Below, in pieces: positions 8,047 to 58,701 of a DNA stretch of 64,000 bases. The translations under genes and the position numbers were made by a program. This stretch comes from an uncultured SAR86 cluster bacterium (GTDB taxonomy: Bacteria > Pseudomonadota > Gammaproteobacteria > Magnimaribacterales > D2472). The notes beneath the pieces are model-generated. The model did no database searches, had not been told where the DNA came from, and saw nothing but the letters and a program-made list of their open reading frames with translations. How positions within the stretch are numbered: the first letter of the stretch is position 1; every line of letters begins with the position of its first letter. Where the stretch lies: assembly GCA_902559345.1 (NCBI GenBank), contig CACEHH010000003.1:1316-65315 (forward strand), in the 5' to 3' direction.

Positions 8047-8650
8047 TTACATTCTCCTCTTCTAGAGTCCTCCACATATATAAGCACATATAACTCCTAA
8101 ATGGGCTAAATAACTCATAAAAGCTAGTATTGTATTTTTTTGATGAGAACATTTTAATATGGGCATTTTTAAGTCCTAAATCTAGATATGAAAAAACATC
8201 TGGATCGCCTAAATAAAATATTCTTGACATCTCAATAGACCAAGGCCCTATGCCCTTTATTTTTATTAAGAATTCATACAAGTCATCAGCAGGCATCTTT
8301 TTCAATTGTTTTTTAGTAATTTTAATTAGCTCTTTATTGAAAATAATTCCATTTAGATACCCGATCTTTTGCCTAGATAGACCAGCTTCTTTAAACTTCT
8401 TATTTAATTTTTCATTAATTTTTTTGTATTTGTTATCTTTTAGAATTAATTCTGTTCTTTTCCAAATTGCAGCTGCGGATTTAACTGATAATTGCTGACC
8501 GACAATAATCTTTGAAAGATGATCAACAAATTTCATATTTGAAGTTCTAATATTCAAAGGGCCAACCTTCTTAATATGATTTGCGAATTGATTAAAGTTT
8601 AATTCAAGAGATTTTTTATATAGAAAATCATATGCACGTTTATGTTCCAT
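8039..8650 (-). CDS. DNA-3-methyladenine glycosylase II family (HhH-GPD, AlkA-like)
   Basis: 203 aa. Helix-hairpin-helix/GPD region IKGIGPWSIEMSRIFYLGDPDVFSYLDLGLKNA. Confidence 0.7.
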   Translation of the reverse strand: MEHKRAYDFLYKKSLELNFNQFANHIKKVGPLNIRTSNMKFVDHLSKIIVGQQLSVKSAAAIWKRTELILKDNKYKKINEKLNKKFKEAGLSRQKIGYLNGIIFNKELIKITKKQLKKMPADDLYEFLIKIKGIGPWSIEMSRIFYLGDPDVFSYLDLGLKNAHIKMFSSKKYNTSFYELFSPFRSYMCLYMWRTLEEENVTI

Positions 8651-12751: not shown

Positions 12752-13298
12752 ACAAGATTTTATTAGATCAATAGATTCATTATTTTTAAAGCTTGAACTA
12801 GCATATCACTATCAGTTTTATAAGGTATTTGGAACTGATGAAAAATTGAAAGAAGGTAAAAAACTATGGGCTGTAAGTTTAAAAAATGTTTCTTCAGAAG
12901 TGATACTTGAGGCCGTTGAGAATGTTATTTCATCTCAATCATACTTACCAACATTAACTGATCTTATTAAAGCTTGTAAAGACATTAATAAAAATGACGG
13001 TTTTTTATCACCAGAAGAAGCCTATCTAGAAGCAAGAAAATCCTACCAACCCAGAAAAGAATTTAATTGGACACATCCAATTATATATTTTGCTGGTAAG
13101 AAAACTGGATGGAATACACTAAATGAAAAGGATTCCAATCAAAACTTTGAAGCTTTTAAAAAAAATTATATCTCAATGAAAATGCAGGCACAGGCTGGTA
13201 AAAAATTTACTATAGAAAAAATTTTAGAAGATGAGGAAGAGTTAAAACCTTATGACAAAGACTTATTTAAAAAACTTAGAAAAAAATTCAAAGTTTAA
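12744..13298 (+). CDS. Phage lambda replication protein P-like (putative helicase-loader family)
   Basis: IDSLFLKLELAY...KKLWAVSLKNVSSEVILEAVENVISSQSYLPTLTDLIKACKD...FNWTHPIIYF is collinear with the lambda P core (INGVFSQLL...RRQWVLAF...FLPSPGQFVAWC...YPWKSNAHYW). The start was chosen as the in-frame TTG 12744, which overlaps the upstream stop (TTGAGTAA). The track's ATG 12651 would overlap the upstream gene by 101 nt. Confidence 0.5.
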   Translation: MSKQDFIRSIDSLFLKLELAYHYQFYKVFGTDEKLKEGKKLWAVSLKNVSSEVILEAVENVISSQSYLPTLTDLIKACKDINKNDGFLSPEEAYLEARKSYQPRKEFNWTHPIIYFAGKKTGWNTLNEKDSNQNFEAFKKNYISMKMQAQAGKKFTIEKILEDEEELKPYDKDLFKKLRKKFKV

Positions 13299-31778: not shown

Positions 31779-32720
31779 TTAAAGTAAAGATGTTACCTTT
31801 TTGAAGGTATCTTCTAATATTTTTATATCATTTATACCAATTTCTTTAAATTCTTCCCAACCTCTAATCCAAGTTGACTGTCTTTTGGCTAGTTGTCTAG
31901 TTGCATACAATGCTTTATCAAAACAGGTTTCTAAATCATATTCATCATTTAGATAACTAAAAAATTGTTTATAGTTTACTGATTTTCGAATTGGATGATT
32001 TTTTGGAATTTTATAACGCTGCAACAAATTCTTCACTTCTTGCTCTAAACCATTATCGAACATCGATTTAAGTCTCTTTTCAATTCTTTCATGAATATTA
32101 GATCTTTCATCCATAATCCCAAACTGTAAGACTGAAAAATTATTTGTTAATGCTTTTTTTTGCTTATCTTTTAAAATCTCACTTAAGGGTTTGTTTAGAA
32201 CCTTAAATACCTCAAGTCCTCGAATTATTCTAGTTTCATCATTTTTATTAATTTTTTCTGCATACACAGGGTCTTTTTTCTTTAACAAATCATACAAATA
32301 TGAAGGTCCATTTTGTAATTTGCGTTGTTCTAACTCTGCCCTATAATTTTTTTCTCTATCGGGCAAGTCATGCATGCCATCAAGTAGCGACTTAAAGTAC
32401 ATCATTGAGCCACCAACAAATAATGGTATTTTCTTAGCTAAATGAGCTTTCTTTATTGTTTTATGAGATGTGCTACAAAAATCTGCAACACTAAATATTT
32501 TATTTGGAGAAATGATATCTACCATATCATGTGGGTATTTTTCTAAGATTTGCTTATCTGGTTTTGCAGAGCCAATATCACATCCCTTATACACCATAAC
32601 AGAATCAACACTTATTATTTGGACTGGAAACTTTTGGGCTAAGTTTAATGCTAAATCTGTTTTTCCAGTTGCAGTTGGCCCAAAAAGAAAAATAATTGGT
32701 AATTTTGTGTTGATAGTTAT
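31779..32720 (-). CDS. miaA: tRNA dimethylallyltransferase; 5' end extended beyond the ORF-track start, start codon non-canonical or unresolved
   Basis: The track ORF starts at an internal Met (MVYKGCDIGSAKP). The same frame upstream reads ITINTKLPIIFLFGPTATGKTDLALNLAQKFPVQIISVDSV, which contains the MiaA P-loop, back to an in-frame TAA at 32723..32721. There is no ATG/GTG/TTG in that stretch. Confidence 0.82.
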   Translation of the reverse strand: MTINTKLPIIFLFGPTATGKTDLALNLAQKFPVQIISVDSVMVYKGCDIGSAKPDKQILEKYPHDMVDIISPNKIFSVADFCSTSHKTIKKAHLAKKIPLFVGGSMMYFKSLLDGMHDLPDREKNYRAELEQRKLQNGPSYLYDLLKKKDPVYAEKINKNDETRIIRGLEVFKVLNKPLSEILKDKQKKALTNNFSVLQFGIMDERSNIHERIEKRLKSMFDNGLEQEVKNLLQRYKIPKNHPIRKSVNYKQFFSYLNDEYDLETCFDKALYATRQLAKRQSTWIRGWEEFKEIGINDIKILEDTFKKVTSLL

Positions 32721-32727
32721 TTAAGAG

Positions 32728-34310
<1,583 letters not shown>

Positions 34311-34356
34311 TAATAATTTAAAGCTCTAATAATGTAATAATACATCTTAATATTAT

Positions 34357-35229
34357 ATGAATAATGCATTATTAATAATTCTTATTACTTTTTGGAGAGC
34401 AATAATTCTTCTTCCAAGAAGCTTACAGCTAATATTGTCATCATTTGTTGGGTTTTTGCTATATTTAATTCCTCTTAAAAGAAATAAATTTAGCAAAATA
34501 AATATTGACCTGTGTTTTCCAAATATGAGTACAAATGAACTGCAAGAAATATACAAAAGAAATGTAATCTTATCTGGAAAAATTTTTTTTGATACTGGAA
34601 TAGCATGGTTTTGGTCAAACAAAAGAATAAATAAAAATATTTCTTATAAAATAAATGGATTAAATAAATTAATTAAAATACAGCAATCAGGCCAAGGGGT
34701 TCTTTTATTTTTTAAACATTCATTACATTTAGAACTTGATACAAGGGTACTTGGAATGCATGCTGAAATATATGGTGTTGAAAGAGAGCATAATTCTAAA
34801 TACTTTCAATCCATTCAAAGAAAAGGCAGATTAAAAGGTATGTGTGATGTTGTAGATAGGAACAATACTATTAGATTTATAAAATGGCTTAAAGAAGGTA
34901 AGACTGTTCTTTATGCGCCTGATCAAGATTATGGAATGAAAAAATCAAATGAAATAAAATTCTTTAATCAGCCGGCAGCAACAGTTTCTGCTCCATCTAA
35001 AATAGTTAAAAAAACATCCTGCAAAACTTTTTTCTTAAATAGCTATCTTAATAAAAATCAATTAATTATTAATATTGAAGAATTAACTTTAAATCATTTG
35101 GATGAATTCAACTTTTCAGAAAATTTGAACATGTATATTGAAGAAAAAATTAAAGAAAATCCTTCTGAGTATCTTTGGCAACACAGAAGGTTTAAGTCCA
35201 CCCTAGGCAAACAAAATTTATATAAATGA
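34357..35229 (+). CDS. lpxL: Lipid A biosynthesis (Kdo)2-lipid IVA late acyltransferase (LpxL/HtrB family)
   Basis: 290 aa. NIDLCFPNMSTNE, HSLHLELD (HX4D/E-type dyad), YAPDQDYG, and YLWQHRRFKS. Confidence 0.85.
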   Translation: MNNALLIILITFWRAIILLPRSLQLILSSFVGFLLYLIPLKRNKFSKINIDLCFPNMSTNELQEIYKRNVILSGKIFFDTGIAWFWSNKRINKNISYKINGLNKLIKIQQSGQGVLLFFKHSLHLELDTRVLGMHAEIYGVEREHNSKYFQSIQRKGRLKGMCDVVDRNNTIRFIKWLKEGKTVLYAPDQDYGMKKSNEIKFFNQPAATVSAPSKIVKKTSCKTFFLNSYLNKNQLIINIEELTLNHLDEFNFSENLNMYIEEKIKENPSEYLWQHRRFKSTLGKQNLYK

Positions 35230-35828
35230 AGATTCGGGAAATTGAAGAAGTTAAAGGCTTTATGCCAAAGCATGAAGGTGAAGCGCTTTTAAATTGGGCT
35301 AAAATTTTTTCAAATATTGGACCTATTTTAGAAGTTGGTACATATTGCGGAAAATCAACTTTATATTTAGCCAAAGGGGCAGCAACTAATAATCAATATG
35401 TGTTCACAATTGATCATCATTCAGGTTCTGAAGAGCATCAATTGAATGAAGAATATTTTGATAATGAAATATATGATTACTCTAAAAATAGAGTAAACAC
35501 ATTTCCTCTATTTATTAAAAATGTAAATAAATTTAAGGCAAATAATATTGTTCCAATTATCTCTGAATCATCAGAAATTGCATCAGAATGGTCATCTAAT
35601 TTGGGCATGGTATTTATAGATGGAGGTCACTCTATTGAGTCTGCATATAACGACTACAATTCATGGGAACCTAAAATATTAACTGGGGGATCATTAGTTA
35701 TACATGATATTTTTGAAAATCCTGATGAAGGAGGTCAGGCACCATATGAAATATATAAAAAAGCTCTTAAAAATAACTATGATTTATATGAAAGAGTCGA
35801 CACTATTGCTTGCTTAATAAAGAATTGA
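35226..35828 (+). CDS. Class I SAM-dependent methyltransferase (small O-methyltransferase-like family)
   Basis: 200 aa. ILEVGTYCGKSTLYLAKG (SAM motif I) and VFIDGGHS...GGSLVIHDI. The start overlaps the lpxL stop (ATGA), suggesting translational coupling. Confidence 0.65.
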   Translation: MKIREIEEVKGFMPKHEGEALLNWAKIFSNIGPILEVGTYCGKSTLYLAKGAATNNQYVFTIDHHSGSEEHQLNEEYFDNEIYDYSKNRVNTFPLFIKNVNKFKANNIVPIISESSEIASEWSSNLGMVFIDGGHSIESAYNDYNSWEPKILTGGSLVIHDIFENPDEGGQAPYEIYKKALKNNYDLYERVDTIACLIKN

Positions 35829-36863
35829 TTGATCCTTAATGAATAAATCTGATGCATCTGAATAATCAAACACGGTGTCAGCAGCAATTATCAATGCAGC
35901 TGAAGTCCAACTTGGTTTTTCTTCTGGCCAAAAAATATTTTCTTCATATTGCCATCCCATATACGGAATTCCATTTTGATCAGAAATATTCAACACATCA
36001 GAAAGCAATTTTCTGGCATCTTTATAATTACCAACAATTGCTAAAGAAATTATAAATTCACTCGTTTCGGCAACAGTAATCCAAGGTTCTTCAATAACAC
36101 ATTTAATACCAATGTCTTTTATATAAAAATTGTTGAAGACTTTCTCAATATAAAAAGATTTTTCATTATTATTTAAACATCCAGAAATAATCGGATAATA
36201 CCAATCCATTGAAAATCTTTTTCTATCTTTCAATAAATCAAATTTCCCTATAGGATTTTTTATAGCATTGGATAAAAGCTCATAACATTTAAGCCATTTT
36301 TTAATATTTTTTTGTTTATCAAGTATTCTTGAAATAGCAACACCACATTCGATGCTTTTTAGAATAGATGAAGATCCTGTAAGCAAATAGTCTTCTTCTA
36401 ACATCCCTTCTGAATCAATTGACCAAGGTATTGCCCCGTTAGATATTTGCAGCTTAGTTGTAAAATTAATTGCAGATTCAATAGTAGGCCATAATTTTTT
36501 TAAAAATTCTTTATCTAAAGAAATTTTATAAAAATGTAATGCAGCGACTGCAATATATGGAGCAAAATGTGTTGGTTTATTCTTTTCGAGTGGCTTTAAA
36601 TCATCATACTTAGCATACCAACTTCCATCTATATTTTGATTTTCAATTAACCACTGAAACGCTAATTTAGCTGATCCCATTTTGTTGGCAAAATTTAAAC
36701 CCATTATTGATTCAATATGATCCCATGGATCATGAGAACCATCTTCATTAGATGGAATTGCTCCAGATTGTAATTGGATTGACTCTATATATGCAGCTAT
36801 CTCAATAAAATACTCTTTATTATAAAAACAATCATCTTCAAATCTTTTTAAAGGCTTATGCAT
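35814..36863 (-). CDS. Hypothetical cytosolic protein, (alpha/alpha)-toroid-like (prenyltransferase / squalene-oxidase-repeat or glycoside-hydrolase-like fold)
   Basis: 349 aa with no signal peptide. It is W/Y-rich with repeat-like motifs (SIQLQSGAIPS, ENQNIDGSWY, KLQISNGAIPW, SDQNGIPYMGW) reminiscent of QxxDGG/SW terpenoid-cyclase/prenyltransferase repeats. It is the last gene of the GT4-MTase-toroid string. The fold call is tentative. Confidence 0.4.
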   Translation of the reverse strand: MHKPLKRFEDDCFYNKEYFIEIAAYIESIQLQSGAIPSNEDGSHDPWDHIESIMGLNFANKMGSAKLAFQWLIENQNIDGSWYAKYDDLKPLEKNKPTHFAPYIAVAALHFYKISLDKEFLKKLWPTIESAINFTTKLQISNGAIPWSIDSEGMLEEDYLLTGSSSILKSIECGVAISRILDKQKNIKKWLKCYELLSNAIKNPIGKFDLLKDRKRFSMDWYYPIISGCLNNNEKSFYIEKVFNNFYIKDIGIKCVIEEPWITVAETSEFIISLAIVGNYKDARKLLSDVLNISDQNGIPYMGWQYEENIFWPEEKPSWTSAALIIAADTVFDYSDASDLFIKDQSILY

Positions 36864-36865
36864 TT

Positions 36866-37570
36866 TTATATTTTTTCAAAATACATTGAAAAACTTTTTC
36901 CCATGATTGGATTTAAGGCTTTATCTAATAAATTAATAAAAAAAGGTTTTTTAAGAATATGTCTCTCAAGCATTCTCTTATAAAGATTGACTAAAAAATT
37001 TTTATCCTGCGTGTTCCAAAAAAAACACCTAAGCCACCAATAAGGACTATGAATTGAATGAAATTTCTCAGATGATAAAAACTTAAATCCAGATTCCTTT
37101 ATTTCTGAGATTAATCCTGATTGACTAAATATTCTAAGGTGCCCGCCTGGTTGGTTTTGATATTCTTTAGAAAGTTTCCAGCATATTTTTTCAGGCCATG
37201 TAGCAGGAACGCTTGCATAAAATTTACCGCCTGGCTTTAAAACTCTATGGATTTCTTTAACAGCATCATTATATTCGTGAAGATGTTCAAGCACTTCTGA
37301 ACATACTACTAGATCAATACTTTCGTCTGGGAATGGTAATGAATATGCAGAACCTTTTAAAAATTGAGCACCAGCCTTTGAAATCGACTTAAAGTATTCA
37401 TATCCCTCTTCAGCCTTTTCTAAAGATTCTTTATCCATATCTAATCCAATACATTTCATTAAAGGATAATCTTGCATAATTCCAAATATATGACGCCCTT
37501 CTCCACAGCCGACATCAAGCATTACGCCTTTTTGATTAAGTTCATGTTTTTTTAAATTAAAAGTTAACAT
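36866..37570 (-). CDS. Class I SAM-dependent methyltransferase (type 11)
   Basis: 234 aa. MLDVGCGEGRH (motif I), DLVVCSEVLEHL, and VLKPGGKFY. Confidence 0.8.
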   Translation of the reverse strand: MLTFNLKKHELNQKGVMLDVGCGEGRHIFGIMQDYPLMKCIGLDMDKESLEKAEEGYEYFKSISKAGAQFLKGSAYSLPFPDESIDLVVCSEVLEHLHEYNDAVKEIHRVLKPGGKFYASVPATWPEKICWKLSKEYQNQPGGHLRIFSQSGLISEIKESGFKFLSSEKFHSIHSPYWWLRCFFWNTQDKNFLVNLYKRMLERHILKKPFFINLLDKALNPIMGKSFSMYFEKI

Positions 37571-38810
37571 CGTTAAATTTTTCTATTGTTTTAAAAATAA
37601 TATTCTCATATTGTTTTGTAATTTTAGCCCAATTAAATCTTTCAATTATATGCTGTCTTCCATTTATGGCTATTTCTTTATATTTTTTATAATCCATTAT
37701 TATTTCTTTTACAGAATCAGATATCATTTTATGGTTCTGAGGATTAACTAGCGTAGCATAATCATTTACTAATTCAGGAATGGATGAAATATTCGTTGCA
37801 ATTAAAGGCACTTCACAACTCATAGCTTCTATAACTGGGTATCCAAAACCTTCATATAAAGAACTTACTATCGCTATTGAGCTTGTTGAATATAATTCTG
37901 TTATTTGCGCTTTTGTAATATTAGATTTAAAAAATACGCTGTCTTTTATATCAAGTTCATTGATTAATCTTTCAGTATGTCCATTTTCTTTAATTGAGCC
38001 AATTACTATTAAGTGCATCTTAGGGAAATCTGACTTTAAATCCTTCAGAGCTTTTAACGAATAATCTAATCCTTTCAATGGGACATCTGCGCTAGCTGTA
38101 GTGATTAATCTGTAGGGATTTCTTGTAGATTTTAAGATAGGCCTAAATTCATCAGTATCTAATCCATTATTAATAACAGTTATGTTTTTCTTGTTACACT
38201 GAAACTCTTTGATAATTCCATCTTTTGAGCTTTGTGAAGGTGAGATAATTCTATTGATTTTAGGAGCTACTTTTTTTTGCATCTTTAAGAAGGAATACCA
38301 CCTATATCTTGAAAATTTATACTTTATCTTTTTAGATGATGCTAGTTCATACTTATAATCAAAAGTGATTGGGTGGTGAATAATCTCAATAAAAGGGAGT
38401 CTGTTCTGTATCTCAAGCATTCCATAACTTAAAGATTGATTGTCTATAACTAAATCATAATCATTATTATTTTTTAGAAAATCGTTGGCTCTATCTCCAA
38501 AAGTTTTCATTTCTGGAAAGCCACCAAATAAAACTGAGAAAAATTCATAATAATCGTTAATATTTTTTTGTTTTTTATTAAATAATTTTTTAATCCTATC
38601 TTTAAATGAGAATGTTTCGAATAAATTTAATCCTGGTAATTTTATTAAATTAATTCCCTCATGAAGATCGGGATATGGAGGTCCAGAAATAACATCCACG
38701 TTATGGCCAATCAAGGTCAAGGCTAAAGAAATATCTTTTACATAAACGCCCTGTCCTCCACCAAATTTAGCGCTTCTATAACTAAGGATTGCTATATTTA
38801 ATTTTTGCAA
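37557..38810 (-). CDS. Glycosyltransferase family 4 (GT-B, group 1)
   Basis: 417 aa. The C-terminal EX7E-type region is SLYEGFGYPVIEAMSCEVPLIATNISSIPELV. GGQGVYV is present near the N-terminus. Confidence 0.88.
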   Translation of the reverse strand: MQKLNIAILSYRSAKFGGGQGVYVKDISLALTLIGHNVDVISGPPYPDLHEGINLIKLPGLNLFETFSFKDRIKKLFNKKQKNINDYYEFFSVLFGGFPEMKTFGDRANDFLKNNNDYDLVIDNQSLSYGMLEIQNRLPFIEIIHHPITFDYKYELASSKKIKYKFSRYRWYSFLKMQKKVAPKINRIISPSQSSKDGIIKEFQCNKKNITVINNGLDTDEFRPILKSTRNPYRLITTASADVPLKGLDYSLKALKDLKSDFPKMHLIVIGSIKENGHTERLINELDIKDSVFFKSNITKAQITELYSTSSIAIVSSLYEGFGYPVIEAMSCEVPLIATNISSIPELVNDYATLVNPQNHKMISDSVKEIIMDYKKYKEIAINGRQHIIERFNWAKITKQYENIIFKTIEKFNDVNF

Positions 38811-38816
38811 AAGTTA

Positions 38817-39737
38817 TTATTTTGTGTAGGTTAACCAGTTTTCGTATAAAGAATTTTTACCAGAAATAATTTCTTGGAATTTATTTTGAAGCTTGTATGT
38901 AACCTCACCTCTTTTACCATCATTTATAGGTTTATTATCAAGTTTTGTTATTGGCGTTATTTCAACAGCTGTACCTGTAAAAAATGCTTCTTCAGCATTG
39001 ATTAGATCTTCATAACGAATATTTTCTTCTTGAACTTCAAAATCAAGATCTTTTGCAATCTGAATTACTGATTGACGCGTTATTCCATTTAAGCAATGAG
39101 CTTTAGTTGGGGTAGAAATTATATTATTTTTAACAATAAAAATGTTCTCTCCACTTCCCTCAGATATAAAGCCATCCTTATCCATCATAATAGCTTCATC
39201 GGCTCCACTTTCAAGCGCCTCATGAAGGGCCATAGTATTACTAAAATATGTTCCAATAATTTTATTTCCTGAATGCAAAGGATTATCATATTGTCTATGA
39301 GAAGATTTTATAACTGAAATACCATCATTCTTAGCTTTGGGATCCATATATGAAGGCCACTCCCAAGCCGCAATTGCAACATTTACACTCAAATCTTTTG
39401 CACGCAAGCCAAGACCTTCATTTCCAAGATATACAATAGGTCTTATATACCCCTGATCAAGATTATTTTTATTTAAAATTTCAAGCTGAGTATTATTTAA
39501 TTCATCATTTGAAAAAGGTATTTTGATATTTATTTTTTCTGCAGCTTCAAAAAGCCTATTAGTATGATCTTGAAGCCTAAATATTGCTGCTCCTTTTGCA
39601 GTCTTATATGCCCTTACACCCTCAAATACTCCAGTGCCATAATGCAAAGTATGAGAAAGAATATGAACATTTGAATCATTCCATTTTTCAAATGATCCAT
39701 TTTTCCATATTAATTTATTATCAGTATCTACAAACAC
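38817..39737 (-). CDS. ilvE: Branched-chain-amino-acid aminotransferase
   Basis: 306 aa. LHYGTGVFEGVRAY, FRLQDHTNRL, EGSGENIF, and GITR. Confidence 0.93.
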   Translation of the reverse strand: MFVDTDNKLIWKNGSFEKWNDSNVHILSHTLHYGTGVFEGVRAYKTAKGAAIFRLQDHTNRLFEAAEKINIKIPFSNDELNNTQLEILNKNNLDQGYIRPIVYLGNEGLGLRAKDLSVNVAIAAWEWPSYMDPKAKNDGISVIKSSHRQYDNPLHSGNKIIGTYFSNTMALHEALESGADEAIMMDKDGFISEGSGENIFIVKNNIISTPTKAHCLNGITRQSVIQIAKDLDFEVQEENIRYEDLINAEEAFFTGTAVEITPITKLDNKPINDGKRGEVTYKLQNKFQEIISGKNSLYENWLTYTK

Positions 39738-39799
39738 ATTTCAAGATATAATTAAGCATAGGTATTATTGCAAAATCATACATATAAAAAAAGAAAAAT

Positions 39800-41170
39800 A
39801 TGGAAATAACAAAATCGATTTTTAGGGAATATGACATTAGAGGCATATACCCAAAACAAATTAATGAAAGCGTTATTGAACAAATTGCAAAAGCTATATC
39901 AATAAAGTGCGATAATGAAAAAGTCTCAGAAATCTGCATAGGAAGAGATGGCAGGCTATCAGGCAAAAGCTTAATTGACTCTTTATCAACCTCTTTATCA
40001 CAATATGGTCTTAATGTTATTAACATAGGTCTTGTAACCACGCCCTTGTTGTATTTTGCAGCAAAAAAGAATGCTTATAAGAGTGGTGTAATGATTACAG
40101 GCAGCCATAATCCAAAAGAATATAATGGAGTTAAGCTTGTTATTAATGACAACCCTGTATCGGGAAATGAGATCTTAAAGCTTATCAAAAAAGATAAATC
40201 AAAAGCTAAAGATGCAGGCGAAATCATTCATATAGATATAAAAGAAAAGTATCTTCAAGAAGTAAAAGAAAATATTAAACTAAATTTAAATGAAAAGATT
40301 AAGGTCGTGATTGATTGTGGCAATGGTGCTGCTGGCTGCATTGCACCTCAATTATTTAATAGTATAGGTTGTGAGGTGGTTGAGCTTTTTAGTGAGGTAG
40401 ATGGCAATTTCCCTAATCATCACCCTGATCCTGGGAATATCGAGAATCTAAATGATCTAATTTTAAAGGTGAAAGAAACTAATGCTGATTTAGGCTTAGC
40501 TTTTGATGGCGATGGTGACAGAATTGGTCTAGTAACAGATCAAGGAGAGATAGTATTTCCTGATAAAATCATGATGATTTTAAGTGAAGATATACTATCT
40601 TCTAATAAAGGATCAGTAATTTTTGATGTGAAGTGCTCAAATGCTCTTAGTAATATAATTTCTGAACTAGGCGGTAATCCAATAATGTTCCCAACAGGGC
40701 ATTTCCATATTAAGAATGGAATAAAGAAACATAACCCGTTGCTTGCAGGAGAAATGAGTGGTCATATTTTCTTTAATGATAAATGGTATGGCTTTGATGA
40801 TGGTCATTATTCAGGAGCAAGAATAATTGAAATTATTTCAAATAAAGGTAAAAGTATTTCTTCAATTAATAATGAATTTCCGCAACTCTTCTCAACCCCT
40901 GAGTTGAATATAAATGTTACAGATGAATCAAAATTCAATATAGTAAAAGAATTCTCAGAAAAATGTAGTCTAAAGGGTGATAAAGTTACTATTGATGGCT
41001 TAAGAATAAATTTTAAAAATGGGTGGGGTTTATTAAGGGCTTCTAATACAACTCCTAAATTGGTTCTTCGGTTTGAAGGGAACTCTCCTTATGATCTTGA
41101 TGAGATTAAAAATGGATTTATAAATGAACTTTCTCGCATTTGTCCTGATATTGATATAAATTTAGATTAA
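39800..41170 (+). CDS. algC: Phosphomannomutase / phosphoglucomutase
   Basis: 456 aa. Active-site Ser loop TGSHNPKEYNGVK, metal loop FDGDGDR, and GEMSGH. Size and context (next to slmA) resemble AlgC/ManB. Confidence 0.88.
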   Translation: MEITKSIFREYDIRGIYPKQINESVIEQIAKAISIKCDNEKVSEICIGRDGRLSGKSLIDSLSTSLSQYGLNVINIGLVTTPLLYFAAKKNAYKSGVMITGSHNPKEYNGVKLVINDNPVSGNEILKLIKKDKSKAKDAGEIIHIDIKEKYLQEVKENIKLNLNEKIKVVIDCGNGAAGCIAPQLFNSIGCEVVELFSEVDGNFPNHHPDPGNIENLNDLILKVKETNADLGLAFDGDGDRIGLVTDQGEIVFPDKIMMILSEDILSSNKGSVIFDVKCSNALSNIISELGGNPIMFPTGHFHIKNGIKKHNPLLAGEMSGHIFFNDKWYGFDDGHYSGARIIEIISNKGKSISSINNEFPQLFSTPELNINVTDESKFNIVKEFSEKCSLKGDKVTIDGLRINFKNGWGLLRASNTTPKLVLRFEGNSPYDLDEIKNGFINELSRICPDIDINLD

Positions 41171-41173
41171 GAG

Positions 41174-41743
41174 ATGAAAAAAGATAGAAAAAATATTATT
41201 CTTCAGTCCTTGGCAAGCATGCTTGAGGAAAGGAATCTTTCTAAGATAACCACTGCTTTGCTAGCAAAAAAATCAAATATTACTGAAGCTGCATTGTATA
41301 GACACTTTCCTAGTAAAAGATCTATATATGCTGAATTATTTTTATTTTGTGATAATGCGATCTTTGCAAAATGCAATGAACTCAAAAAAAGTGATCTATC
41401 TTCAAAAGATAAAGCAAAGAGTGCATTCATTTTTTTCATGATTTTCATTGAAAAAAACAAGGGATTTGCTAGATTGCTATCAAGAGAAGCTCTTTCATCA
41501 AACGAACAAAATGTAGCTGATGATGTAAATAAATTTTATGAAAGATTTGAACTAATACTTAGACAAATGTTAAAAGAAGATAGTGCAAATCTGAATGCGC
41601 AACCAGGAATATCTGCTCAACTTATTGTTTCGTCAATAGAAGGTAGTATTGGCAGATATATAAGGTCTAAATTTAAAGACTCTCCATCAATTTATATTGA
41701 AAATGTTTGGGAGCTTTTATCATTAAGTATTTTTAAAAACTAA
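41174..41743 (+). CDS. slmA: Nucleoid occlusion factor SlmA (TetR family)
   Basis: 189 aa. [36 protein letters not shown] and the C-terminal [22 protein letters not shown] are collinear with E. coli SlmA ([36 protein letters not shown] ... FCEGMLSRFVRSEFKYRP). Confidence 0.75.
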   Translation: [189 protein letters not shown]

Positions 41744-54785: not shown

Positions 54786-55754
54786 ATGACATTAAATAAA
54801 AAAATAGAGTTACCAAGCAAGCCTGATAAAAAATTTGCTGTTTCTGATGTTTTTGATATTGATTCAAAACTTTCTGTAAAAGGCTTCAACGATAAATCAG
54901 ATTGGGTTCCTGAAATAGATAGTTCTTATGTATTTGATAAAAATACAACATTATCCATATTGGCTGGTTTCGAGCATAACAGAAGAGTTATGGTTCAAGG
55001 GTTTCATGGGACAGGTAAGTCAACACATATTGAACAAATAGCTGCAAGATTAAATTGGCCATGTGTCCGAATTAATCTTGATAGCCATATCAGCAGAATT
55101 GATTTATTAGGAAAGGATGCTATCAAACTAAATGATGGTAAACAAATCACAGAATTTCAAGAAGGGTTATTACCATGGTCAATTCAAAATCCTGTTGCCT
55201 TGGTCTTTGATGAGTATGATGCGGGTCGTCCAGATGTTATGTTTGTAATACAGAGAATACTTGAGGTGGAGGGTAAGCTCACTCTTCTTGATCAAAATAA
55301 AATCTTAACTCCACATCCTTCTTTTAGATTATTTGCAACAACAAACACTGTTGGTCTTGGAGATATGACTGGCTTGTATCACGGAACTCAACAAATTAAT
55401 CAAGGCCAGTTAGATAGATGGCATATTCTTTCGACACTAAACTATCTTAATCCTAAACAAGAATATAAAGTAGTCGCATCCAAATTAAACAGTCTCAAAG
55501 GAGCAAAAAATCAAGAAATATTAATAAATATGATTAAGCTTGCCAACTTAACGAGGTCTGGTTTTGCTAATGGTGATATTTCTACATTAATGTCACCAAG
55601 AACAGTTATTTCGTGGGCTCAGAATTACAAAATATTTAAAGATCTTGTTGATTCATTTAAGTTAAGCTTCTTAAATAAATGTGATGATATTGAAAAACCA
55701 ATTATCTCTGAATATTTTCAACGCTGTTTCGATAAAGAAATTGATGAAATTTAA
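54786..55754 (+). CDS. cobS: CobS-type AAA+ ATPase (aerobic cobaltochelatase small subunit family, MoxR-like)
   Basis: 322 aa. Walker A GFHGTGKST and Walker B LVFDEYDAGRPDV. Length and pairing with a CobT-like vWA protein fit CobS. Confidence 0.8.
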   Translation: MTLNKKIELPSKPDKKFAVSDVFDIDSKLSVKGFNDKSDWVPEIDSSYVFDKNTTLSILAGFEHNRRVMVQGFHGTGKSTHIEQIAARLNWPCVRINLDSHISRIDLLGKDAIKLNDGKQITEFQEGLLPWSIQNPVALVFDEYDAGRPDVMFVIQRILEVEGKLTLLDQNKILTPHPSFRLFATTNTVGLGDMTGLYHGTQQINQGQLDRWHILSTLNYLNPKQEYKVVASKLNSLKGAKNQEILINMIKLANLTRSGFANGDISTLMSPRTVISWAQNYKIFKDLVDSFKLSFLNKCDDIEKPIISEYFQRCFDKEIDEI

Positions 55755-55767
55755 CATAATATAGTTT

Positions 55768-57537
55768 TTGATGGGATGGAATAAACATAGAGAAAGACTC
55801 CATGAGGCAGCCTTTTCATCAGTAAAAGCTATTTCTAATAAAAAAGATTTAACTTCTAGCACTGGCCTATCGCAGAGACCTCCTATTGAAAAAAATATCA
55901 TCATTCCTTCTGCACCCCGGTCATCAAAAGATTTAAATAAATGGAGGGGGGAATCAGACTATCAAGCCTTCTGGCATCTTTTTCATAAAAAAACGAAAGA
56001 GCTGCCCCTAACGTTAAATGCAAGAATGATCTTTAATGAATTGGAGATTTCAAGGGTAGAATTACTTGGTAGCTCTAAATACAAAGGTTCACAAAAGAAT
56101 ATTTCAGAATACCTTAATCAAAGAAGCGCAAATATAGATGATAAGAAATCAATGAGCACTTTGGCTTATGGAGCAAACCTGTGGCTAAAAAATGCTGCAA
56201 GATTTAAATTAAGTGATGAATCTAAGAATATTTTGCAAATATTTAAAGACAAATACAATTTAAATGAATCCATAGAGCTGGTAGCTAAAACATTAGTCGA
56301 TAATATTGACAATCAAATTAAATTTGAGAAATTATCATTAAAATTTCTTCAAAAACTCAATCTTGCTAAAGATATAGCTGATAAAGATAGTGATTCTAAT
56401 TCTGATCATACCCCTGGCACAAATGATGAGCTTGAAAACAACAATATTGAAGAAGAATCTCAGCTAACAGATGAGAATGAAAAAAATATTGAGGACTTTC
56501 AAGGGAATATAGAAGTTGATATTCAAGAATCACTTGAAAATATAGATGACGCATCAATACAAGAAGAAATCGAAGGAGTTTCATATCTTAATAATGAACT
56601 CTATTCAAATTTTAATAATGATTATTCTATATATACTTCAAATTTTGATGAAATAATCGATGCTAAAGATTTAGTGACTAATGATGAATCTATGAGACTG
56701 AGAAACCAATTAGATAATTTAATTAAGCCTCATTTATCAACAATTGGAAAACTAGCGAATAGACTTCAAAGATTGTTATTGGCGAAACAAAATACCAGCT
56801 GGAACTATAACTTAGAAGAAGGAATATTGGATAATGCAAGATTGCATCGAGTTATTGCAAATCCAGGATATCCACTAAGCTTTAAACAAGAGACAGAAAA
56901 TAATTTTAAAGACACTATTGTTACTCTCTTAATTGATAATTCAGGTTCAATGAGAGGAAGATCCATTAGTTTAGCTGCAATATGTGCAGACATTATTGGA
57001 AGTACGCTAGAAAGATGCCAAGTTAAAACAGAAATACTTGGTTTTACAACCAAACATTGGAAAGGTGGAGATTCAAAAAAGCTTTGGGAAATTAATGGCA
57101 GTCGCTCTAATCCTGGAAGATTAAATGATATTAGGCACATAATATATAAAAGTGCTGATAATAGTTGGAGAAGATCCAGAAAATATTTTGGTGCAATGTT
57201 GAGAGAGGGTTTGTTAAAAGAAAATGTTGATGGTGAAGCTCTGGCATGGTCACATGAAAGATTAACTAAAAGATCAGAAGAGAGGAAAATAATGATTGTT
57301 ATATCTGATGGGGCTCCTGTAGATGACAGTACAAATTCAGCAAATAGAGAAGATTTTTTAGACAACCATCTGAAAGAAATTATCTTCAAGATAGAGAATG
57401 AAAGCAATATTGATCTTCAAGCAATTGGTATAGGTCATGATGTAACAAAATACTATAAAAATGCACTTACCATTAATAGAGCTGAAGAACTTGGCGAAGT
57501 TTTATTGGATGAATTGACAAAACTTTTCAATAATTAG
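55768..57537 (+). CDS. cobT: CobT-type protein (N-terminal CobT domain, acidic linker, C-terminal vWA/MIDAS domain)
   Basis: 589 aa. The acidic low-complexity linker spans about 56381..56581. The C-terminal vWA domain has the MIDAS motif LLIDNSGSMRG and ISDGAPVDDST. Confidence 0.78.
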   Translation: MMGWNKHRERLHEAAFSSVKAISNKKDLTSSTGLSQRPPIEKNIIIPSAPRSSKDLNKWRGESDYQAFWHLFHKKTKELPLTLNARMIFNELEISRVELLGSSKYKGSQKNISEYLNQRSANIDDKKSMSTLAYGANLWLKNAARFKLSDESKNILQIFKDKYNLNESIELVAKTLVDNIDNQIKFEKLSLKFLQKLNLAKDIADKDSDSNSDHTPGTNDELENNNIEEESQLTDENEKNIEDFQGNIEVDIQESLENIDDASIQEEIEGVSYLNNELYSNFNNDYSIYTSNFDEIIDAKDLVTNDESMRLRNQLDNLIKPHLSTIGKLANRLQRLLLAKQNTSWNYNLEEGILDNARLHRVIANPGYPLSFKQETENNFKDTIVTLLIDNSGSMRGRSISLAAICADIIGSTLERCQVKTEILGFTTKHWKGGDSKKLWEINGSRSNPGRLNDIRHIIYKSADNSWRRSRKYFGAMLREGLLKENVDGEALAWSHERLTKRSEERKIMIVISDGAPVDDSTNSANREDFLDNHLKEIIFKIENESNIDLQAIGIGHDVTKYYKNALTINRAEELGEVLLDELTKLFNN

Positions 57538-57557
57538 TAATTATTATAAAATGTTAT

Positions 57558-57576
57558 ATGTTTACACTGTAAACAT
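57558..57576. promoter_or_regulatory. Perfect 19-bp palindrome ATGTTTACA-C-TGTAAACAT, candidate operator (or weak hairpin) 18 nt upstream of the diiron oxygenase start
   Basis: Read directly from the sequence. It has 9-bp arms around a single central C and sits in the 57-bp spacer between cobT and the next ORF. Confidence 0.3.
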
Positions 57577-57594
57577 TATTTAGAGAGCTATTCT

Positions 57595-58701
57595 ATGAAG
57601 ATACATAAGCAAGATGGACCACCTGAGGATCTTTTATATTTTGATGAAGATTTAAATCTGACTCAGAAACAAGTAGAGGATGTTGTAGAAATTTTTCATA
57701 CACCTCTTACAGGTGCATATAACTGGGATTACACAGATGCAGATAATCGAATAAAAAAACTCTATGAGCTTGGTAAAGAATTAAACTGGAATGGTTCTAT
57801 TGATCTTAATTGGGATTATTCGCATCCAGCAGATGAAAGAATTATTGAAACTGATGAAGAACTTCCTCATGAAGCTCTTGATGCCTATAACGATCTTTCA
57901 GAAGAAGAAAAAATACTCTTTGATAGGCATAGCACTGCTGAACTTATGAGCCAATTTCTTCATGGAGAGCAAGGTGCTCTTTTAGTTGCTTCACAATTGG
58001 CAAGTTGTGCACCCTCTTATAATGCAAAACTATATGCTGCTTCTCAGACATTTGATGAAGCTCGACATGTCGAGGTTTTTAATAAATATCTTCAAGATAA
58101 AATAGGTATTCATTATCCAATCAATCCTAATTTAAAGTTATTGCTTGACAAAATTCTTACAGATGAAAGATGGGATTTAAAATTTATAGGAATGCAAATA
58201 ATTATTGAAGGGTTAGCATTGGCTGCATTTCAGATGCTTAAATCTATTACAAAAGACCCGTTATTAAAACAATTACTTCATTATGTTGTTCGTGATGAAG
58301 CAAGACATGTAACTTTTGGTATAAATTATTTAGAGGATTTTATTAAGACATTATCGCCTGAAGAAATAGAAGAAAGAGCACAATTTGCATATGAGGCTTG
58401 TGTTATATCAAGAGACAGATTAATTAATACAAAAGCGGAACAAAGATTTCTTAAAATGTCTGAGGATGAAGCAAGAGAATTTTCTTTAAATACTGGAAGT
58501 TTTGAATTATTCAGAAATTTCTTATTTTCTAGAGTAATACCTAATTTATCGAGAATTGGTCTCTTAACTGATTCTGTCAGGCCTAAATTTGAGGCTTTAG
58601 GCTTATTAGAATATGAGCACGCCCCTGATGATTTTGAATGTGATTGGGCGGAAATGAAAAAGCCTTTAGAACAATTTGGACAAATACCTACAACTTTATA
58701 A
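57595..58701 (+). CDS. Ferritin-like diiron-carboxylate oxygenase of unknown substrate (AurF / R2-like superfamily)
   Basis: 368 aa. It carries the canonical E...EXXH...E...EXXH ligand set: HGEQGALLVASQL, FDEARHVEVF, IIIEGLALAAF, and VRDEARHVTFG. Confidence 0.65.
   Translation: MKIHKQDGPPEDLLYFDEDLNLTQKQVEDVVEIFHTPLTGAYNWDYTDADNRIKKLYELGKELNWNGSIDLNWDYSHPADERIIETDEELPHEALDAYNDLSEEEKILFDRHSTAELMSQFLHGEQGALLVASQLASCAPSYNAKLYAASQTFDEARHVEVFNKYLQDKIGIHYPINPNLKLLLDKILTDERWDLKFIGMQIIIEGLALAAFQMLKSITKDPLLKQLLHYVVRDEARHVTFGINYLEDFIKTLSPEEIEERAQFAYEACVISRDRLINTKAEQRFLKMSEDEAREFSLNTGSFELFRNFLFSRVIPNLSRIGLLTDSVRPKFEALGLLEYEHAPDDFECDWAEMKKPLEQFGQIPTTL

What the first reader, a model, noticed from the sequence alone, without database searches (positions are those of the whole stretch)
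35226..38810. Uncharacterised four-gene cassette (MTase; alpha/alpha-toroid protein; MTase; GT4) attached to the lipid A-Kdo genes
A 200-aa SAM methyltransferase is translationally coupled to lpxL (ATGA overlap). Converging on it, with a 15-nt overlap, is a string of ilvE, GT4 glycosyltransferase, type-11 methyltransferase and a 349-aa W/Y-rich protein. That protein has QxxDGSW-like repeats (ENQNIDGSWY, SNGAIPW, QNGIPYMGW), suggesting a prenyltransferase/terpene-cyclase-like or GH-like (alpha/alpha)6 barrel, and it has no signal peptide. Nothing in the canonical Raetz or core-oligosaccharide pathway needs a toroid protein or two methyltransferases. Given its position next to waaA/lpxL, the cassette may build or modify a methylated glycolipid or core sugar. 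I cannot name the product.
Basis: partly seen in the sequence, partly recalled or inferred. Interest (0 to 1): 0.55.

Follow-up and report, generated by a model that had tools for sequence, protein, structure and literature searches.

The report
Mycobacterial-type methylmannose polysaccharide cluster in SAR86
The four "uncharacterised" genes are a full copy of the cluster that non-tuberculous mycobacteria use to make and recycle an intracellular methylated mannose polysaccharide that binds fatty-acyl chains, found here in the abundant marine bacterium SAR86 and in many other Proteobacteria, where it has apparently not been reported.

Summary
All four ORFs, the ATGA overlap with lpxL and the 15-nt convergent overlap are as described. 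The cassette is not uncharacterised. Each protein is a full-length homologue (34-41% identity) of one member of the mycobacterial 3-O-methylmannose polysaccharide (MMP) cluster:
- the GT4 matches ManT (PDB 7QSG, E 8e-70);
- the type-11 methyltransferase matches pMeT3;
- the 349-aa "toroid" matches the endomannosidase MmpH (7QSJ, E 3e-57; AlphaFold model TM 0.90);
- the 200-aa methyltransferase matches MeT1 (6G7D, E 2e-41).

Gene order, the convergent MeT1 and all mutation-validated catalytic residues are conserved. The window is from SAR86. The same unit occurs in other Gamma-, Delta- and Alphaproteobacteria and in Streptomyces (at least 599 matching stretches among species-representative genomes), and a ManT+MmpH tree follows taxonomy. 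Linkage to waaA is confined to Gammaproteobacteria, and lpxL adjacency to SAR86. The proteins have no membrane segments, and the window has no export or ligase genes. The likely product is therefore a soluble cytoplasmic polymethylated mannan, not an LPS decoration. The sugar and its donor are inferred, not shown. I found no report of MMP genes outside Actinobacteria in the papers I could search. Verdict: a new member of a known kind in an unexpected host, of moderate to high interest.

The parts
37557..38810 (-). ManT-like GT4 glycosyltransferase (417 aa), predicted alpha-(1->4)-mannosyltransferase that elongates the chain
   Evidence: PDB sequence search: 7QSG (M. hassiacum ManT) E 7.9e-70 over residues 4-409; the next best chain scores 1.7e-15. 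35% identity to ManT. G15, H142, K240, E313, G314, F315 and E321 are conserved as G18, H145, K246, E320, G321, F322 and E328. The modelled guanine contact D293 is K300. Reciprocal best hit in the window.
36866..37570 (-). pMeT3-like class I SAM methyltransferase (234 aa), predicted mannose 3-O-methyltransferase
   Evidence: Pfam Methyltransf_11. Aligns end to end (residues 1-233 against 1-235, 35% identity, 176 bits) with the methyltransferase that sits between ManT and MmpH in the mycobacterial-type locus L087. In the reciprocal search it scores 177 bits, against 54 bits for the window's other Methyltransf_11 gene. Found next to ManT and MmpH in 67 loci from five taxonomic groups.
35814..36863 (-). 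MmpH-like (alpha/alpha)6-barrel endo-alpha-(1->4)-mannosidase (349 aa), predicted recycling and priming hydrolase
   Evidence: PDB 7QSJ E 2.7e-57. AlphaFold pLDDT 94.6. Foldseek top hit 7QSJ with TM 0.90, rmsd 1.2 A, E 6e-28; next hit 2e-08. Catalytic D47, D50 and E262 and 7 of 8 pocket residues are conserved; N101 is H99.
35226..35828 (+). MeT1-like methyltransferase (200 aa), predicted reducing-end 1-O-methyltransferase; start overlaps the lpxL stop (ATGA) and the 3' end overlaps the MmpH-like gene by 15 nt
   Evidence: Pfam Methyltransf_24. The only PDB match is 6G7D/6G80/6H40, E 1.6e-41, 41% identity. PMC9883506 identifies MeT1 as the 1-O-methyltransferase of the cluster; my link of those PDB entries to MeT1 rests on memory. 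The DHHxGSEEHQ block and 31 columns are at least 95% conserved across 56 cluster-linked homologues. The convergent orientation is conserved in all groups, including the actinobacterial locus L086.
39800..41170 (+). Phosphomannomutase/phosphoglucomutase (context; possible supplier of mannose-1-phosphate)
   Evidence: Pfam PGM_PMM I-IV; NCBIfam PgmG 444 bits, below the cut-off of 600. Its position next to ilvE and the cluster is conserved in SAR86 relatives. A functional link is inferred only.
38817..39737 (-). ilvE (context; lies 7 nt upstream of ManT on the same strand and is probably co-transcribed)
   Evidence: NCBIfam branched-chain amino acid transaminase, 380 bits against a cut-off of 279. 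The arrangement ilvE-[cluster]-waaA is also seen in L055 and L077.
34357..35229 (+). lpxL (context; translationally coupled to the MeT1-like gene)
   Evidence: Pfam Lip_A_acyltrans; ATGA overlap. lpxL directly abuts the MeT1-like gene only in the window-type SAR86 loci; in the second SAR86 lineage (L039) it lies about 1.6 kb away, and it was not detected in other groups.
33069..34310 (-). waaA (context)
   Evidence: Pfam Glycos_transf_N; NCBIfam Kdo transferase models, 345 bits, below cut-off. Found within 7 kb of the cluster in 18 of 45 gammaproteobacterial loci and in none of about 40 delta, alpha or actinobacterial loci.

Best explanation
The cassette is the SAR86 version of the four-gene cluster that non-tuberculous mycobacteria use to make and self-replicate 3-O-methylmannose polysaccharide (MMP). 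MMP is a short, soluble, cytoplasmic chain of alpha-(1->4)-linked 3-O-methylmannose with a methyl cap on its reducing end. Proposed mechanism, transferred from the mycobacterial enzymes: (1) the ManT-like GT4 adds mannose from a nucleotide sugar (GDP-mannose in mycobacteria) to oligomannoside primers of at least 3-4 units; (2) the MeT3-like enzyme 3-O-methylates the added residues, a step that is presumed rather than shown even in mycobacteria; (3) the MeT1-like enzyme methylates the free reducing-end 1-OH; (4) the MmpH-like inverting endomannosidase cuts mature chains into defined fragments that prime daughter chains. What is shown here: homology of all four proteins, conserved gene order and orientation, conserved catalytic residues, a matching fold, soluble proteins, and wide and apparently old distribution in Proteobacteria. 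What is inferred: the sugar, the donor nucleotide, the methylation positions, the chain length and the physiological role. In mycobacteria the proposed role is sequestering long acyl-CoA or fatty-acid chains, with a link to cold adaptation. The position next to lpxL and waaA is best read as synteny inherited within Gammaproteobacteria, possibly allowing co-expression with lipid A acylation, and not as evidence that the glycan is attached to LPS.
For: Homology to the reference enzymes: MmpH 7QSJ E 2.7e-57; MeT1 6G7D E 1.6e-41, the only PDB match; ManT 7QSG E 7.9e-70, with the next chain at 1.7e-15; MeT3 35% identity over the full length to the cluster methyltransferase of L087, whose ManT is 76% identical to M. 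hassiacum ManT. Each reference protein picks exactly its counterpart as best hit in the 64-kb window. Gene order ManT-MeT3-MmpH-MeT1 equals MHAS_04402-04405. Convergent MeT1 is also seen in the actinobacterial locus L086. Catalytic residues proven by mutagenesis in PMC9883506 are all conserved: MmpH D47, D50, E262; ManT K240, E313, E321, plus H142. Structure model pLDDT 94.6, TM 0.90 to 7QSJ. The four genes are the only families shared by SAR86, other gamma, delta, alpha and actinobacterial loci: 83, 67, 67 and 55 loci. A ManT+MmpH NJ tree follows taxonomy. GC3 equals that of housekeeping genes. No membrane segments. No exporter or ligase genes in the window. PMM/PGM lies 2 genes away.
Against: No chemistry has been done on any proteobacterial carrier. 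Identity to the mycobacterial enzymes is only 34-41%. ManT D293, modelled as the guanine contact, is conserved in the actinobacterial loci examined (5 of 5) and, among Proteobacteria, only in a minority (8 of 60), and is K in SAR86, so the donor may not be GDP-mannose. MmpH pocket residue N101 is H in the window-type SAR86 clade, and ManT L317 is Y. No GDP-mannose pyrophosphorylase is present in the window, and the rest of the genome could not be examined. MeT1 catalytic residues could not be checked because the 2019 PNAS paper is not held. MMP's proposed partner in mycobacteria (FAS-I) is, from general knowledge, absent in Proteobacteria, so the function cannot simply be transferred. In Gammaproteobacteria the cluster does sit among LPS and sugar-nucleotide genes (waaA, hldE, rmlABCD).
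Confidence: 0.75

Rival explanations
1. The cluster builds or decorates an LPS component, such as a methylated mannan O-chain or a core substituent.
For: ATGA coupling of lpxL and the MeT1-like gene. waaA lies within 7 kb in 18 of 45 gammaproteobacterial loci. rmlABCD, hldE and a TolC-like gene flank the cluster in Halieaceae-type genomes. PMM/PGM is nearby. 3-O-methylmannose occurs in one LPS O-chain, that of Oligotropha carboxidovorans, cited in PMC9883506.
Against: The same unit occurs with no LPS genes nearby in about 33 delta and alpha loci and in Actinobacteria, which lack LPS. All four proteins lack membrane segments, whereas LpxL and WaaA have them. No undecaprenyl-phosphate glycosyltransferase, Wzx/Wzy, Wzm/Wzt or WaaL-type gene was found in the 64-kb window. 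A cytoplasmic endo-hydrolase and a reducing-end 1-O-methyltransferase do not fit a lipid-linked, exported polymer. The homologous product in mycobacteria is intracellular.
Confidence: 0.08
2. The enzymes are true MMP-cluster homologues, but in SAR86 and other Proteobacteria they make a different polymethylated glycan, with another hexose, another nucleotide donor, or another methylation or acylation pattern.
For: ManT D293 is variable outside Actinobacteria (T in most gammas, K in SAR86). SAR86-specific changes are N101 to H in MmpH and L317 to Y in ManT. Syntrophales clusters add a hexapeptide acyltransferase and a B12-radical SAM enzyme, which shows that the cluster is chemically elaborated in some lineages. 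Streptomyces griseus is reported to make an acetylated MMP. Identity is only 34-41%.
Against: 10 of 11 MmpH active-site or pocket residues and the whole ManT mannosyl-binding EGF...E loop are conserved. Retention of all four activities as one unit across phyla argues for the same basic product. D293 and L317 are modelled contacts that were never mutated, and L317 contacts the sugar through its main chain.
Confidence: 0.14
3. The cluster is catabolic: it degrades and modifies methylated mannans taken up from seawater rather than synthesising them.
For: MmpH is a hydrolase. In Desulfobacteraceae, MmpH-like genes occur without ManT, MeT3 or MeT1, sometimes next to an MFS transporter. From general knowledge, SAR86 is a scavenger of organic matter.
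Against: The window cluster contains a glycosyltransferase and two methyltransferases, which are biosynthetic. There is no transporter, TonB receptor or sugar kinase in or next to the cluster. The mycobacterial hydrolase is required for biosynthesis.
Confidence: 0.03

Closest known systems
MMP (3-O-methylmannose polysaccharide) gene cluster of non-tuberculous mycobacteria: ManT, pMeT3, MmpH, MeT1 (M. hassiacum MHAS_04402-04405; Maranha et al. 2023, PMC9883506; Ripoll-Rozada et al. 2019)
   Same: The same four protein families, each aligned over its full length (34-41% identity). The same order, ManT-MeT3-MmpH-MeT1. A convergent MeT1. The same validated catalytic residues. The same MmpH fold (TM 0.90). 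Soluble proteins.
   Different: The host is a roughly 32% GC Gram-negative marine gammaproteobacterium (SAR86) with, presumably, type II fatty-acid synthesis. The cluster is embedded between ilvE and lpxL-waaA, and MeT1 is translationally coupled to lpxL. ManT D293 is K, and MmpH N101 is H. The product has not been demonstrated.
GH15 glucoamylase/glucodextranase and GH125 exo-alpha-1,6-mannosidase (clan GH-L) (alpha/alpha)6 barrels
   Same: The fold class and an inverting-type acid/base pair. A weak partial NCBIfam hit to TIGR01577 (40 bits). Foldseek hits at E about 1e-8.
   Different: The score is far below the family cut-off (40 against 820 bits). Structural hits are 20 orders of magnitude weaker than MmpH. 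According to PMC9883506, the -1 subsite Arg/Asp of GH15 and GH125 are absent in MmpH, which is an endo-enzyme.
MGLP (6-O-methylglucose lipopolysaccharide) pathway of mycobacteria
   Same: It is the other polymethylated cytoplasmic polysaccharide proposed to bind acyl chains, and it is made by a GT4-type enzyme plus methyltransferases.
   Different: A different sugar (glucose), a different primer (from memory, glucosylglycerate), different genes, and no MmpH or MeT1 homologues. Not tested here beyond the specific matches to the MMP enzymes.
Polymannan O-antigen systems capped by methylation (E. coli O8 / Klebsiella O5 WbdA-WbdD, from memory) and the 3-O-methylmannan O-chain of Oligotropha carboxidovorans (cited in PMC9883506)
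   Same: Mannose polymers with O-methyl groups, made by GT4-type enzymes in Gram-negative bacteria.
   Different: Those polymers are undecaprenyl-linked, exported by ABC transporters and ligated to core. No such genes are near this cluster, and this cluster has a hydrolase and a reducing-end methyltransferase instead.

Membership tests
MMP biosynthesis/recycling cluster (ManT-pMeT3-MmpH-MeT1) | Four adjacent genes encoding a GT4, a class I methyltransferase, an (alpha/alpha)6 hydrolase and a Methyltransf_24-type methyltransferase, in the order ManT-MeT3-MmpH-MeT1 | tested here: met
   ORF map. Order in M. hassiacum MHAS_04402-04405. The same order and a convergent MeT1 in the 55 loci where MeT1 was detected, across five taxonomic groups.
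MMP biosynthesis/recycling cluster (ManT-pMeT3-MmpH-MeT1) | MmpH: (alpha/alpha)6 barrel with catalytic Asp47, Asp50 and Glu262 (mutagenesis-validated) and a conserved pocket (W49, N101, F102, T163, M215, Y219, E265, W315) | tested here: met
   E 2.7e-57 to 7QSJ. Model TM 0.90, rmsd 1.2 A. D45, D48 and E266 are present. 7 of 8 pocket residues are identical; N101 is H99.
MMP biosynthesis/recycling cluster (ManT-pMeT3-MmpH-MeT1) | ManT: GT4/GT-B enzyme with Gly15 loop, His142, Lys240, Glu313-Gly-Phe and Glu321 (K240, E313 and E321 validated by mutagenesis) | tested here: met
   E 7.9e-70 to 7QSG, with a gap of 55 orders of magnitude to the next GT4. G18, H145, K246, E320, G321, F322 and E328 are present. 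These residues are invariant, or nearly so, across the 65 cluster-linked homologues.
MMP biosynthesis/recycling cluster (ManT-pMeT3-MmpH-MeT1) | ManT donor specificity for GDP-mannose (modelled guanine contacts Leu291 and Asp293) | tested here: not met
   L291 is I298 (conservative), but D293 is K300. D is conserved in the 5 actinobacterial sequences and only in a minority (8 of 60) of proteobacterial ones. The contact was modelled by analogy to PimA and never mutated, so this weakens the donor assignment without excluding it.
MMP biosynthesis/recycling cluster (ManT-pMeT3-MmpH-MeT1) | MeT1: homologue of the structurally characterised 1-O-methyltransferase (6G7D), with its substrate and metal-binding residues | tested here: inconclusive
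   Sequence homology is met: E 1.6e-41, 41% identity, the only PDB hit, with 31 columns at least 95% conserved across phyla. The published catalytic residues could not be checked because the paper is not held.
MMP biosynthesis/recycling cluster (ManT-pMeT3-MmpH-MeT1) | pMeT3: the Methyltransf_11 protein encoded between ManT and MmpH | tested here: met
   Full-length alignment to the L087 and L085 cluster methyltransferases (35-39% identity, about 176 bits). Reciprocal best hit at 177 against 54 bits. Its 3-O-methyltransferase activity is still unproven in mycobacteria.
MMP biosynthesis/recycling cluster (ManT-pMeT3-MmpH-MeT1) | Product: soluble intracellular alpha-(1->4) 3-O-methylmannose chain of 11-14 units with a 1-O-methyl aglycon | not testable with these tools
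   This needs extraction, mass spectrometry and NMR from a carrier or a heterologous host. The only indirect support is that the proteins are soluble and that no export genes are present.
MMP biosynthesis/recycling cluster (ManT-pMeT3-MmpH-MeT1) | Availability of the activated mannose donor (PMM plus GDP-mannose pyrophosphorylase) | tested here: inconclusive
   PMM/PGM is present at 39800-41170. No NTP_transferase/ManC was found among the window ORFs of at least 150 aa. The rest of the genome is unavailable.
LPS core / O-antigen modification locus | Membrane-associated or lipid-carrier-dependent enzymes plus a flippase, ABC exporter or ligase, and consistent co-occurrence with LPS genes | tested here: not met
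   No membrane segments. No such genes in the window. waaA linkage only in Gammaproteobacteria (18 of 45 loci) and in none of about 40 loci elsewhere.
Prenyltransferase / terpene cyclase alpha-alpha toroid | Match to prenyltransferase or squalene-hopene cyclase repeat families or folds | tested here: not met
   No Pfam hit at E <= 0.01. The 50 top Foldseek PDB hits are overwhelmingly glycoside hydrolases and phosphorylases, with a few sugar isomerases/epimerases and one uncharacterised protein; none is a prenyltransferase or cyclase.
GH15 glucoamylase family | Score above the family threshold and the GH15 -1 subsite residues | tested here: not met
   TIGR01577 scores 40.4 bits against a cut-off of 820.7, for a partial match. 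GH15-type structures score only E about 1e-8, with rmsd about 5 A. PMC9883506 reports that the GH15 Arg/Asp -1 subsite pair is missing in MmpH.

The most novel reading that the evidence does not exclude
Polymethylated mannose polysaccharides may not be a mycobacterial peculiarity tied to FAS-I and the mycolate envelope. They may instead be an old, widespread bacterial cytoplasmic acyl-chain carrier. Under this reading, the streamlined SAR86 genome keeps the cluster translationally coupled to the late lipid A acyltransferase LpxL because the glycan buffers or delivers long acyl chains for envelope lipid synthesis or for lipid catabolism at low temperature. From general knowledge, many carriers are fatty-acid or hydrocarbon degraders (Smithella/Syntrophaceae, Parvibaculum, Pseudomaricurvus hydrocarbonicus). 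From memory, methylated hexoses are known in marine dissolved organic matter, and this glycan could be one unrecognised source of them.
Probability: 0.2. Interest if true: 0.8.

Novelty: new member of a known kind. Interest (0 to 1): 0.6.

Why it matters
MMP is treated in the literature as a feature of non-tuberculous mycobacteria (plus an acetylated form in Streptomyces), and is studied as a possible target and as a modulator of mycobacterial fatty-acid synthesis. The published census searched only actinobacterial genomes (PMC9883506). A complete, catalytically intact cluster that tracks taxonomy in SAR86, Halieaceae, Cellvibrionales, Microbulbifer, Syntrophales and several Alphaproteobacteria has four consequences:
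1. About 3.6 kb of "hypothetical" genes in one of the ocean's most abundant heterotrophs now has a concrete, testable annotation.
2. The function of polymethylated polysaccharides can be studied in organisms without FAS-I or mycolic acids, which bears on the unresolved question of what these glycans are for.
3. The rare alpha-(1->4)-mannosyltransferase and endo-alpha-(1->4)-mannosidase activities are much more widespread than thought.
4. Several carriers are cultured, so the prediction can be tested directly.

It also corrects the tempting but weak inference that position next to lpxL and waaA implies an LPS function.

Tried and rejected
- Prenyltransferase/terpene-cyclase reading of the W/Y-rich repeats: rejected (no Pfam hit; listed structural neighbours overwhelmingly glycoside hydrolases/phosphorylases).
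- GH15 membership: rejected (40 against 820 bits).
- Recent horizontal transfer from Actinobacteria: rejected. The cluster's GC3 (0.18-0.22) equals that of housekeeping genes. The ManT+MmpH NJ tree follows taxonomy (no bootstrap). Synteny is conserved among SAR86 relatives at about 47-72% MmpH identity.
- Rfam scan of the window: no hits.
- Promoter and terminator scan of 32600-41300: fewer matches than in shuffled sequence, so uninformative.
- Search for extra universally conserved partner genes, such as a missing initiating enzyme: none found. Only lineage-specific neighbours appear: rmlABCD, TolC-like, hldE and waaA in gammas; hexapeptide acyltransferase and B12-radical SAM in Syntrophales.
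- Attempts to read the 2019 PNAS MeT1 paper by DOI and PMC id failed because it is not held, so MeT1 catalytic residues and any statement there on distribution could not be checked.
- Literature searches for MMP genes or methylmannose polymers in Proteobacteria, SAR86 or marine bacteria found nothing relevant.
- The genome scan used the peptide pattern [FYW][AS]MDW[YF]YP, which M. hassiacum (SMEWYYP) does not match. The absence of Mycobacterium among the 80 loci is therefore a sampling artefact, and the taxonomic picture is biased towards relatives of the query.

Full report
**Observation.**
- The 200-aa gene lies at 35226-35828 (+). Its ATG overlaps the lpxL stop, reading ...AAATGAAG....
- Three co-directional genes lie on the minus strand: GT4 at 37557-38810, a methyltransferase at 36866-37570, and the 349-aa protein at 35814-36863. 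They are packed with a 14-nt overlap and a 2-nt gap.
- The GT4 starts 7 nt after the ilvE stop.
- The 3' ends of the 349-aa and 200-aa genes overlap convergently by 15 nt.
- Pfam gives Methyltransf_24, Methyltransf_11 and GT4, and nothing for the 349-aa protein.
- NCBIfam gives only a far sub-threshold partial hit to a GH15-type "oligosaccharide amylase" (40 bits against a cut-off of 821).

**Identity of the four proteins.** A sequence search of the PDB resolved the cassette.
- The 349-aa protein matches 7QSJ, the methylmannose polysaccharide hydrolase MmpH of Mycolicibacterium hassiacum, at E 2.7e-57 over residues 23-333.
- The 200-aa methyltransferase has a single PDB match, 6G7D/6G80/6H40, at E 1.6e-41. 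From memory these entries are the MMP 1-O-methyltransferase MeT1; PMC9883506 describes MeT1 as the cluster's 1-O-methyltransferase.
- The GT4 matches 7QSG at E 7.9e-70, and the next GT4 chain scores 1.7e-15. 7QSG was deposited as "D-inositol 3-phosphate glycosyltransferase". I take it to be the ManT structure of PMC9883506: its accession is adjacent to that of MmpH (7QSJ), and the residue numbers the paper gives for M. hassiacum ManT map onto it exactly.
- The fourth enzyme, pMeT3, has no solved structure. To test it I retrieved a mycobacterial-type locus, L087, whose ManT is 76% and whose MmpH is 70% identical to the M. hassiacum proteins. Its cluster methyltransferase aligns end to end with the window's 234-aa protein (35% identity, 176 bits).
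- In a reciprocal search of the whole window, every reference protein picks exactly its counterpart. The MeT3 reference scores 177 bits on 36872-37570, against 54 bits on the window's other Methyltransf_11 gene at about 6100-6400.
- Maranha et al. 2023 (PMC9883506) describe this four-gene cluster and its order, ManT-pMeT3-MmpH-MeT1 (MHAS_04402-04405). The window has the same order.

**Catalytic residues and fold.** The residues shown by mutagenesis to be essential are all present.
- MmpH D47, D50 and E262 correspond to D45, D48 and E266.
- ManT K240, E313 and E321, together with the conserved H142 and G15, correspond to K246, E320, E328, H145 and G18.
- Ten of eleven MmpH active-site or pocket residues are identical. 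N101 is H99, a change specific to the window-type SAR86 clade.
- One feature fails. ManT D293, modelled by analogy with PimA as a guanine contact, is K300 here. It is conserved in all five actinobacterial sequences but in only a minority (8 of 60) of proteobacterial ones. The nucleotide donor is therefore not secure.
- An AlphaFold model built on a 41-sequence alignment has pLDDT 94.6 and pTM 0.93. It superposes on 7QSJ with TM 0.90 and rmsd 1.2 A (E 6e-28). The next hits (E about 1e-8) are generic (alpha/alpha)6 glycoside hydrolases and phosphorylases.

**Host and distribution.**
- The best genomic match is an uncultured SAR86 single-cell genome (72% identity for MmpH). A relative whose MmpH-like protein is 69% identical, on a 995-kb contig, has the same neighbourhood: slmA-PMM-ilvE-[cluster]-lpxL-waaA-glnB-miaA-hflKC.
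- The rest of the window is ordinary housekeeping sequence at about 32% GC.
- The MmpH family is small but diverse: 133 clusters at 50% identity reach E <= 1e-30, out of 1.84 billion representatives.
- The best 80 come from SAR86, Halieaceae, Cellvibrionales, Microbulbifer, Spongiibacteraceae, Syntrophales, Desulfobacteraceae, Desulfarculus, Henriciella, Caulobacteraceae, Parvibaculum and Streptomyces.
- tblastn and ORF clustering show that ManT, MeT3, MmpH and MeT1 are the only gene families shared by all five taxonomic groups, in 67, 67, 83 and 55 loci respectively. Wherever they were detected they have the same order, with MeT1 on the opposite strand.
- The convergent MeT1 is also seen in an actinobacterial locus, L086.
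- A neighbour-joining tree of ManT+MmpH recovers SAR86, other gamma, alpha, delta and Streptomyces as separate clades (no bootstrap). The cluster's GC3 is indistinguishable from that of housekeeping genes.
- Together these results point to long residence in each lineage rather than recent transfer.

**Relation to LPS.**
- waaA lies within 7 kb of the cluster in 18 of 45 gammaproteobacterial loci, including all six SAR86 loci. In Halieaceae-type genomes the flanks are rmlABCD, a TolC-like gene and hldE.
- None of the roughly 33 delta or alpha loci, and none of the actinobacterial loci, has LPS genes nearby.
- Direct lpxL adjacency to MeT1 is specific to the window-type SAR86 clade.
- All four proteins lack hydrophobic segments, whereas LpxL and WaaA have N-terminal anchors.
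- The window has no flippase, ABC exporter, polymerase or ligase gene.
- A cytoplasmic endo-hydrolase and a reducing-end 1-O-methyltransferase are hard to reconcile with a lipid-linked exported polymer.
- I therefore read the LPS neighbourhood as inherited gammaproteobacterial synteny. It may allow co-expression with lipid A acylation in SAR86, but it is not evidence that the glycan is part of LPS.

**Mechanism (inferred by homology).** ManT elongates alpha-(1->4) oligomannoside primers. MeT3 3-O-methylates them. MeT1 caps the free reducing end. MmpH cleaves mature chains into primers for daughter chains; this is the "partially conservative replication" of PMC9883506. The adjacent PMM/PGM could supply mannose-1-phosphate, but no GDP-mannose pyrophosphorylase is in the window. 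The physiological role is open. In mycobacteria MMP is proposed to sequester acyl-CoA and fatty acids, and loss of MmpH slows growth at 15 C.

**Novelty.** Full-text searches found no report of MMP genes or methylmannose polysaccharides outside Actinobacteria. The published census was restricted to actinobacterial genomes. The 2019 PNAS paper could not be read, so a remark there cannot be excluded. The proteins carry no Pfam or NCBIfam assignment that would reveal their role. I classify the finding as a new member of a known kind, in an unexpected and ecologically important host.

**Limits.**
- No chemistry exists for any proteobacterial carrier.
- Identities are 34-41%.
- Taxon labels are taken from record titles.
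- ORF calling in the loci was crude.
- The locus sample is the top 80 by similarity to the query and is biased by the search pattern, which excludes the mycobacterial SMEWYYP motif.
- Prevalence within SAR86 was not determined. At least two divergent SAR86 lineages carry the cluster: L005 and the window, and L039.

Noticed in passing
L009:4926-11124, L012:5004-11532; also L013, L014, L030, L032, L052: Syntrophales/Smithella genomes carry a six-gene version of the cluster. A hexapeptide-repeat acyltransferase (about 240 aa) and a B12-binding radical SAM enzyme (about 530 aa) are inserted between MmpH and the convergent MeT1. This suggests an acylated and/or C-methylated variant of the polysaccharide (compare the acetylated MMP of Streptomyces griseus).
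   Followed up: partly
L016, L025, L029, L060, L065 (MmpH-like at about 6900-8000 in each): Desulfobacteraceae loci have an MmpH-like gene followed by the same hexapeptide acyltransferase, and sometimes an MFS transporter, but no ManT, MeT3 or MeT1 within 7 kb. The hydrolase may have a different, possibly catabolic, role there.
   Followed up: partly
L028, L043, L069, L070, L071: Cellvibrionaceae loci have ManT-MeT3-MmpH but no MeT1 homologue within the fetched flanks, so the reducing-end cap may be optional or encoded elsewhere.
   Followed up: no
L019, L023, L026, L034, L037, L061, L067, L068 (flanks of the cluster): In Halieaceae-type Gammaproteobacteria the cluster is sandwiched between rmlB/D/A/C (dTDP-rhamnose) on one side and a TolC-like outer-membrane protein, hldE and waaA on the other. 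This is a conserved arrangement whose meaning (synteny or function) is unresolved.
   Followed up: partly
window 59745-61943 (+): A 732-aa protein in which only residues 62-222 match a known family (DUF305). The remaining 500 or so residues are unassigned.
   Followed up: no
window 61964-62776 (+) and 62804-63406 (+): A Fumble-type (type II, eukaryote-like) pantothenate kinase homologue, followed directly by a fatty-acid hydroxylase family protein.
   Followed up: no
window 54786-58701 (+): A CobS-like AAA+ (AAA_5) and CobT-like VWA pair, followed by a weak AurF-like di-iron oxygenase homologue. No other cobalamin genes are in the window.
   Followed up: no
window 8039-8650 (-) and 12651-13298 (+): Two ORFs of about 200 aa with no Pfam match. 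The second overlaps the preceding DnaT-domain ORF (11957-12751) by about 100 nt, so one of the two starts is probably miscalled.
   Followed up: no
window 37557-38810 (ManT-like residue K300) and 35814-36863 (MmpH-like residue H99): SAR86-specific substitutions occur at two modelled sugar or nucleotide contact positions: ManT D293 to K, and MmpH N101 to H. ManT L317 is also Y. Together they might signal a slightly different substrate in this clade.
   Followed up: partly
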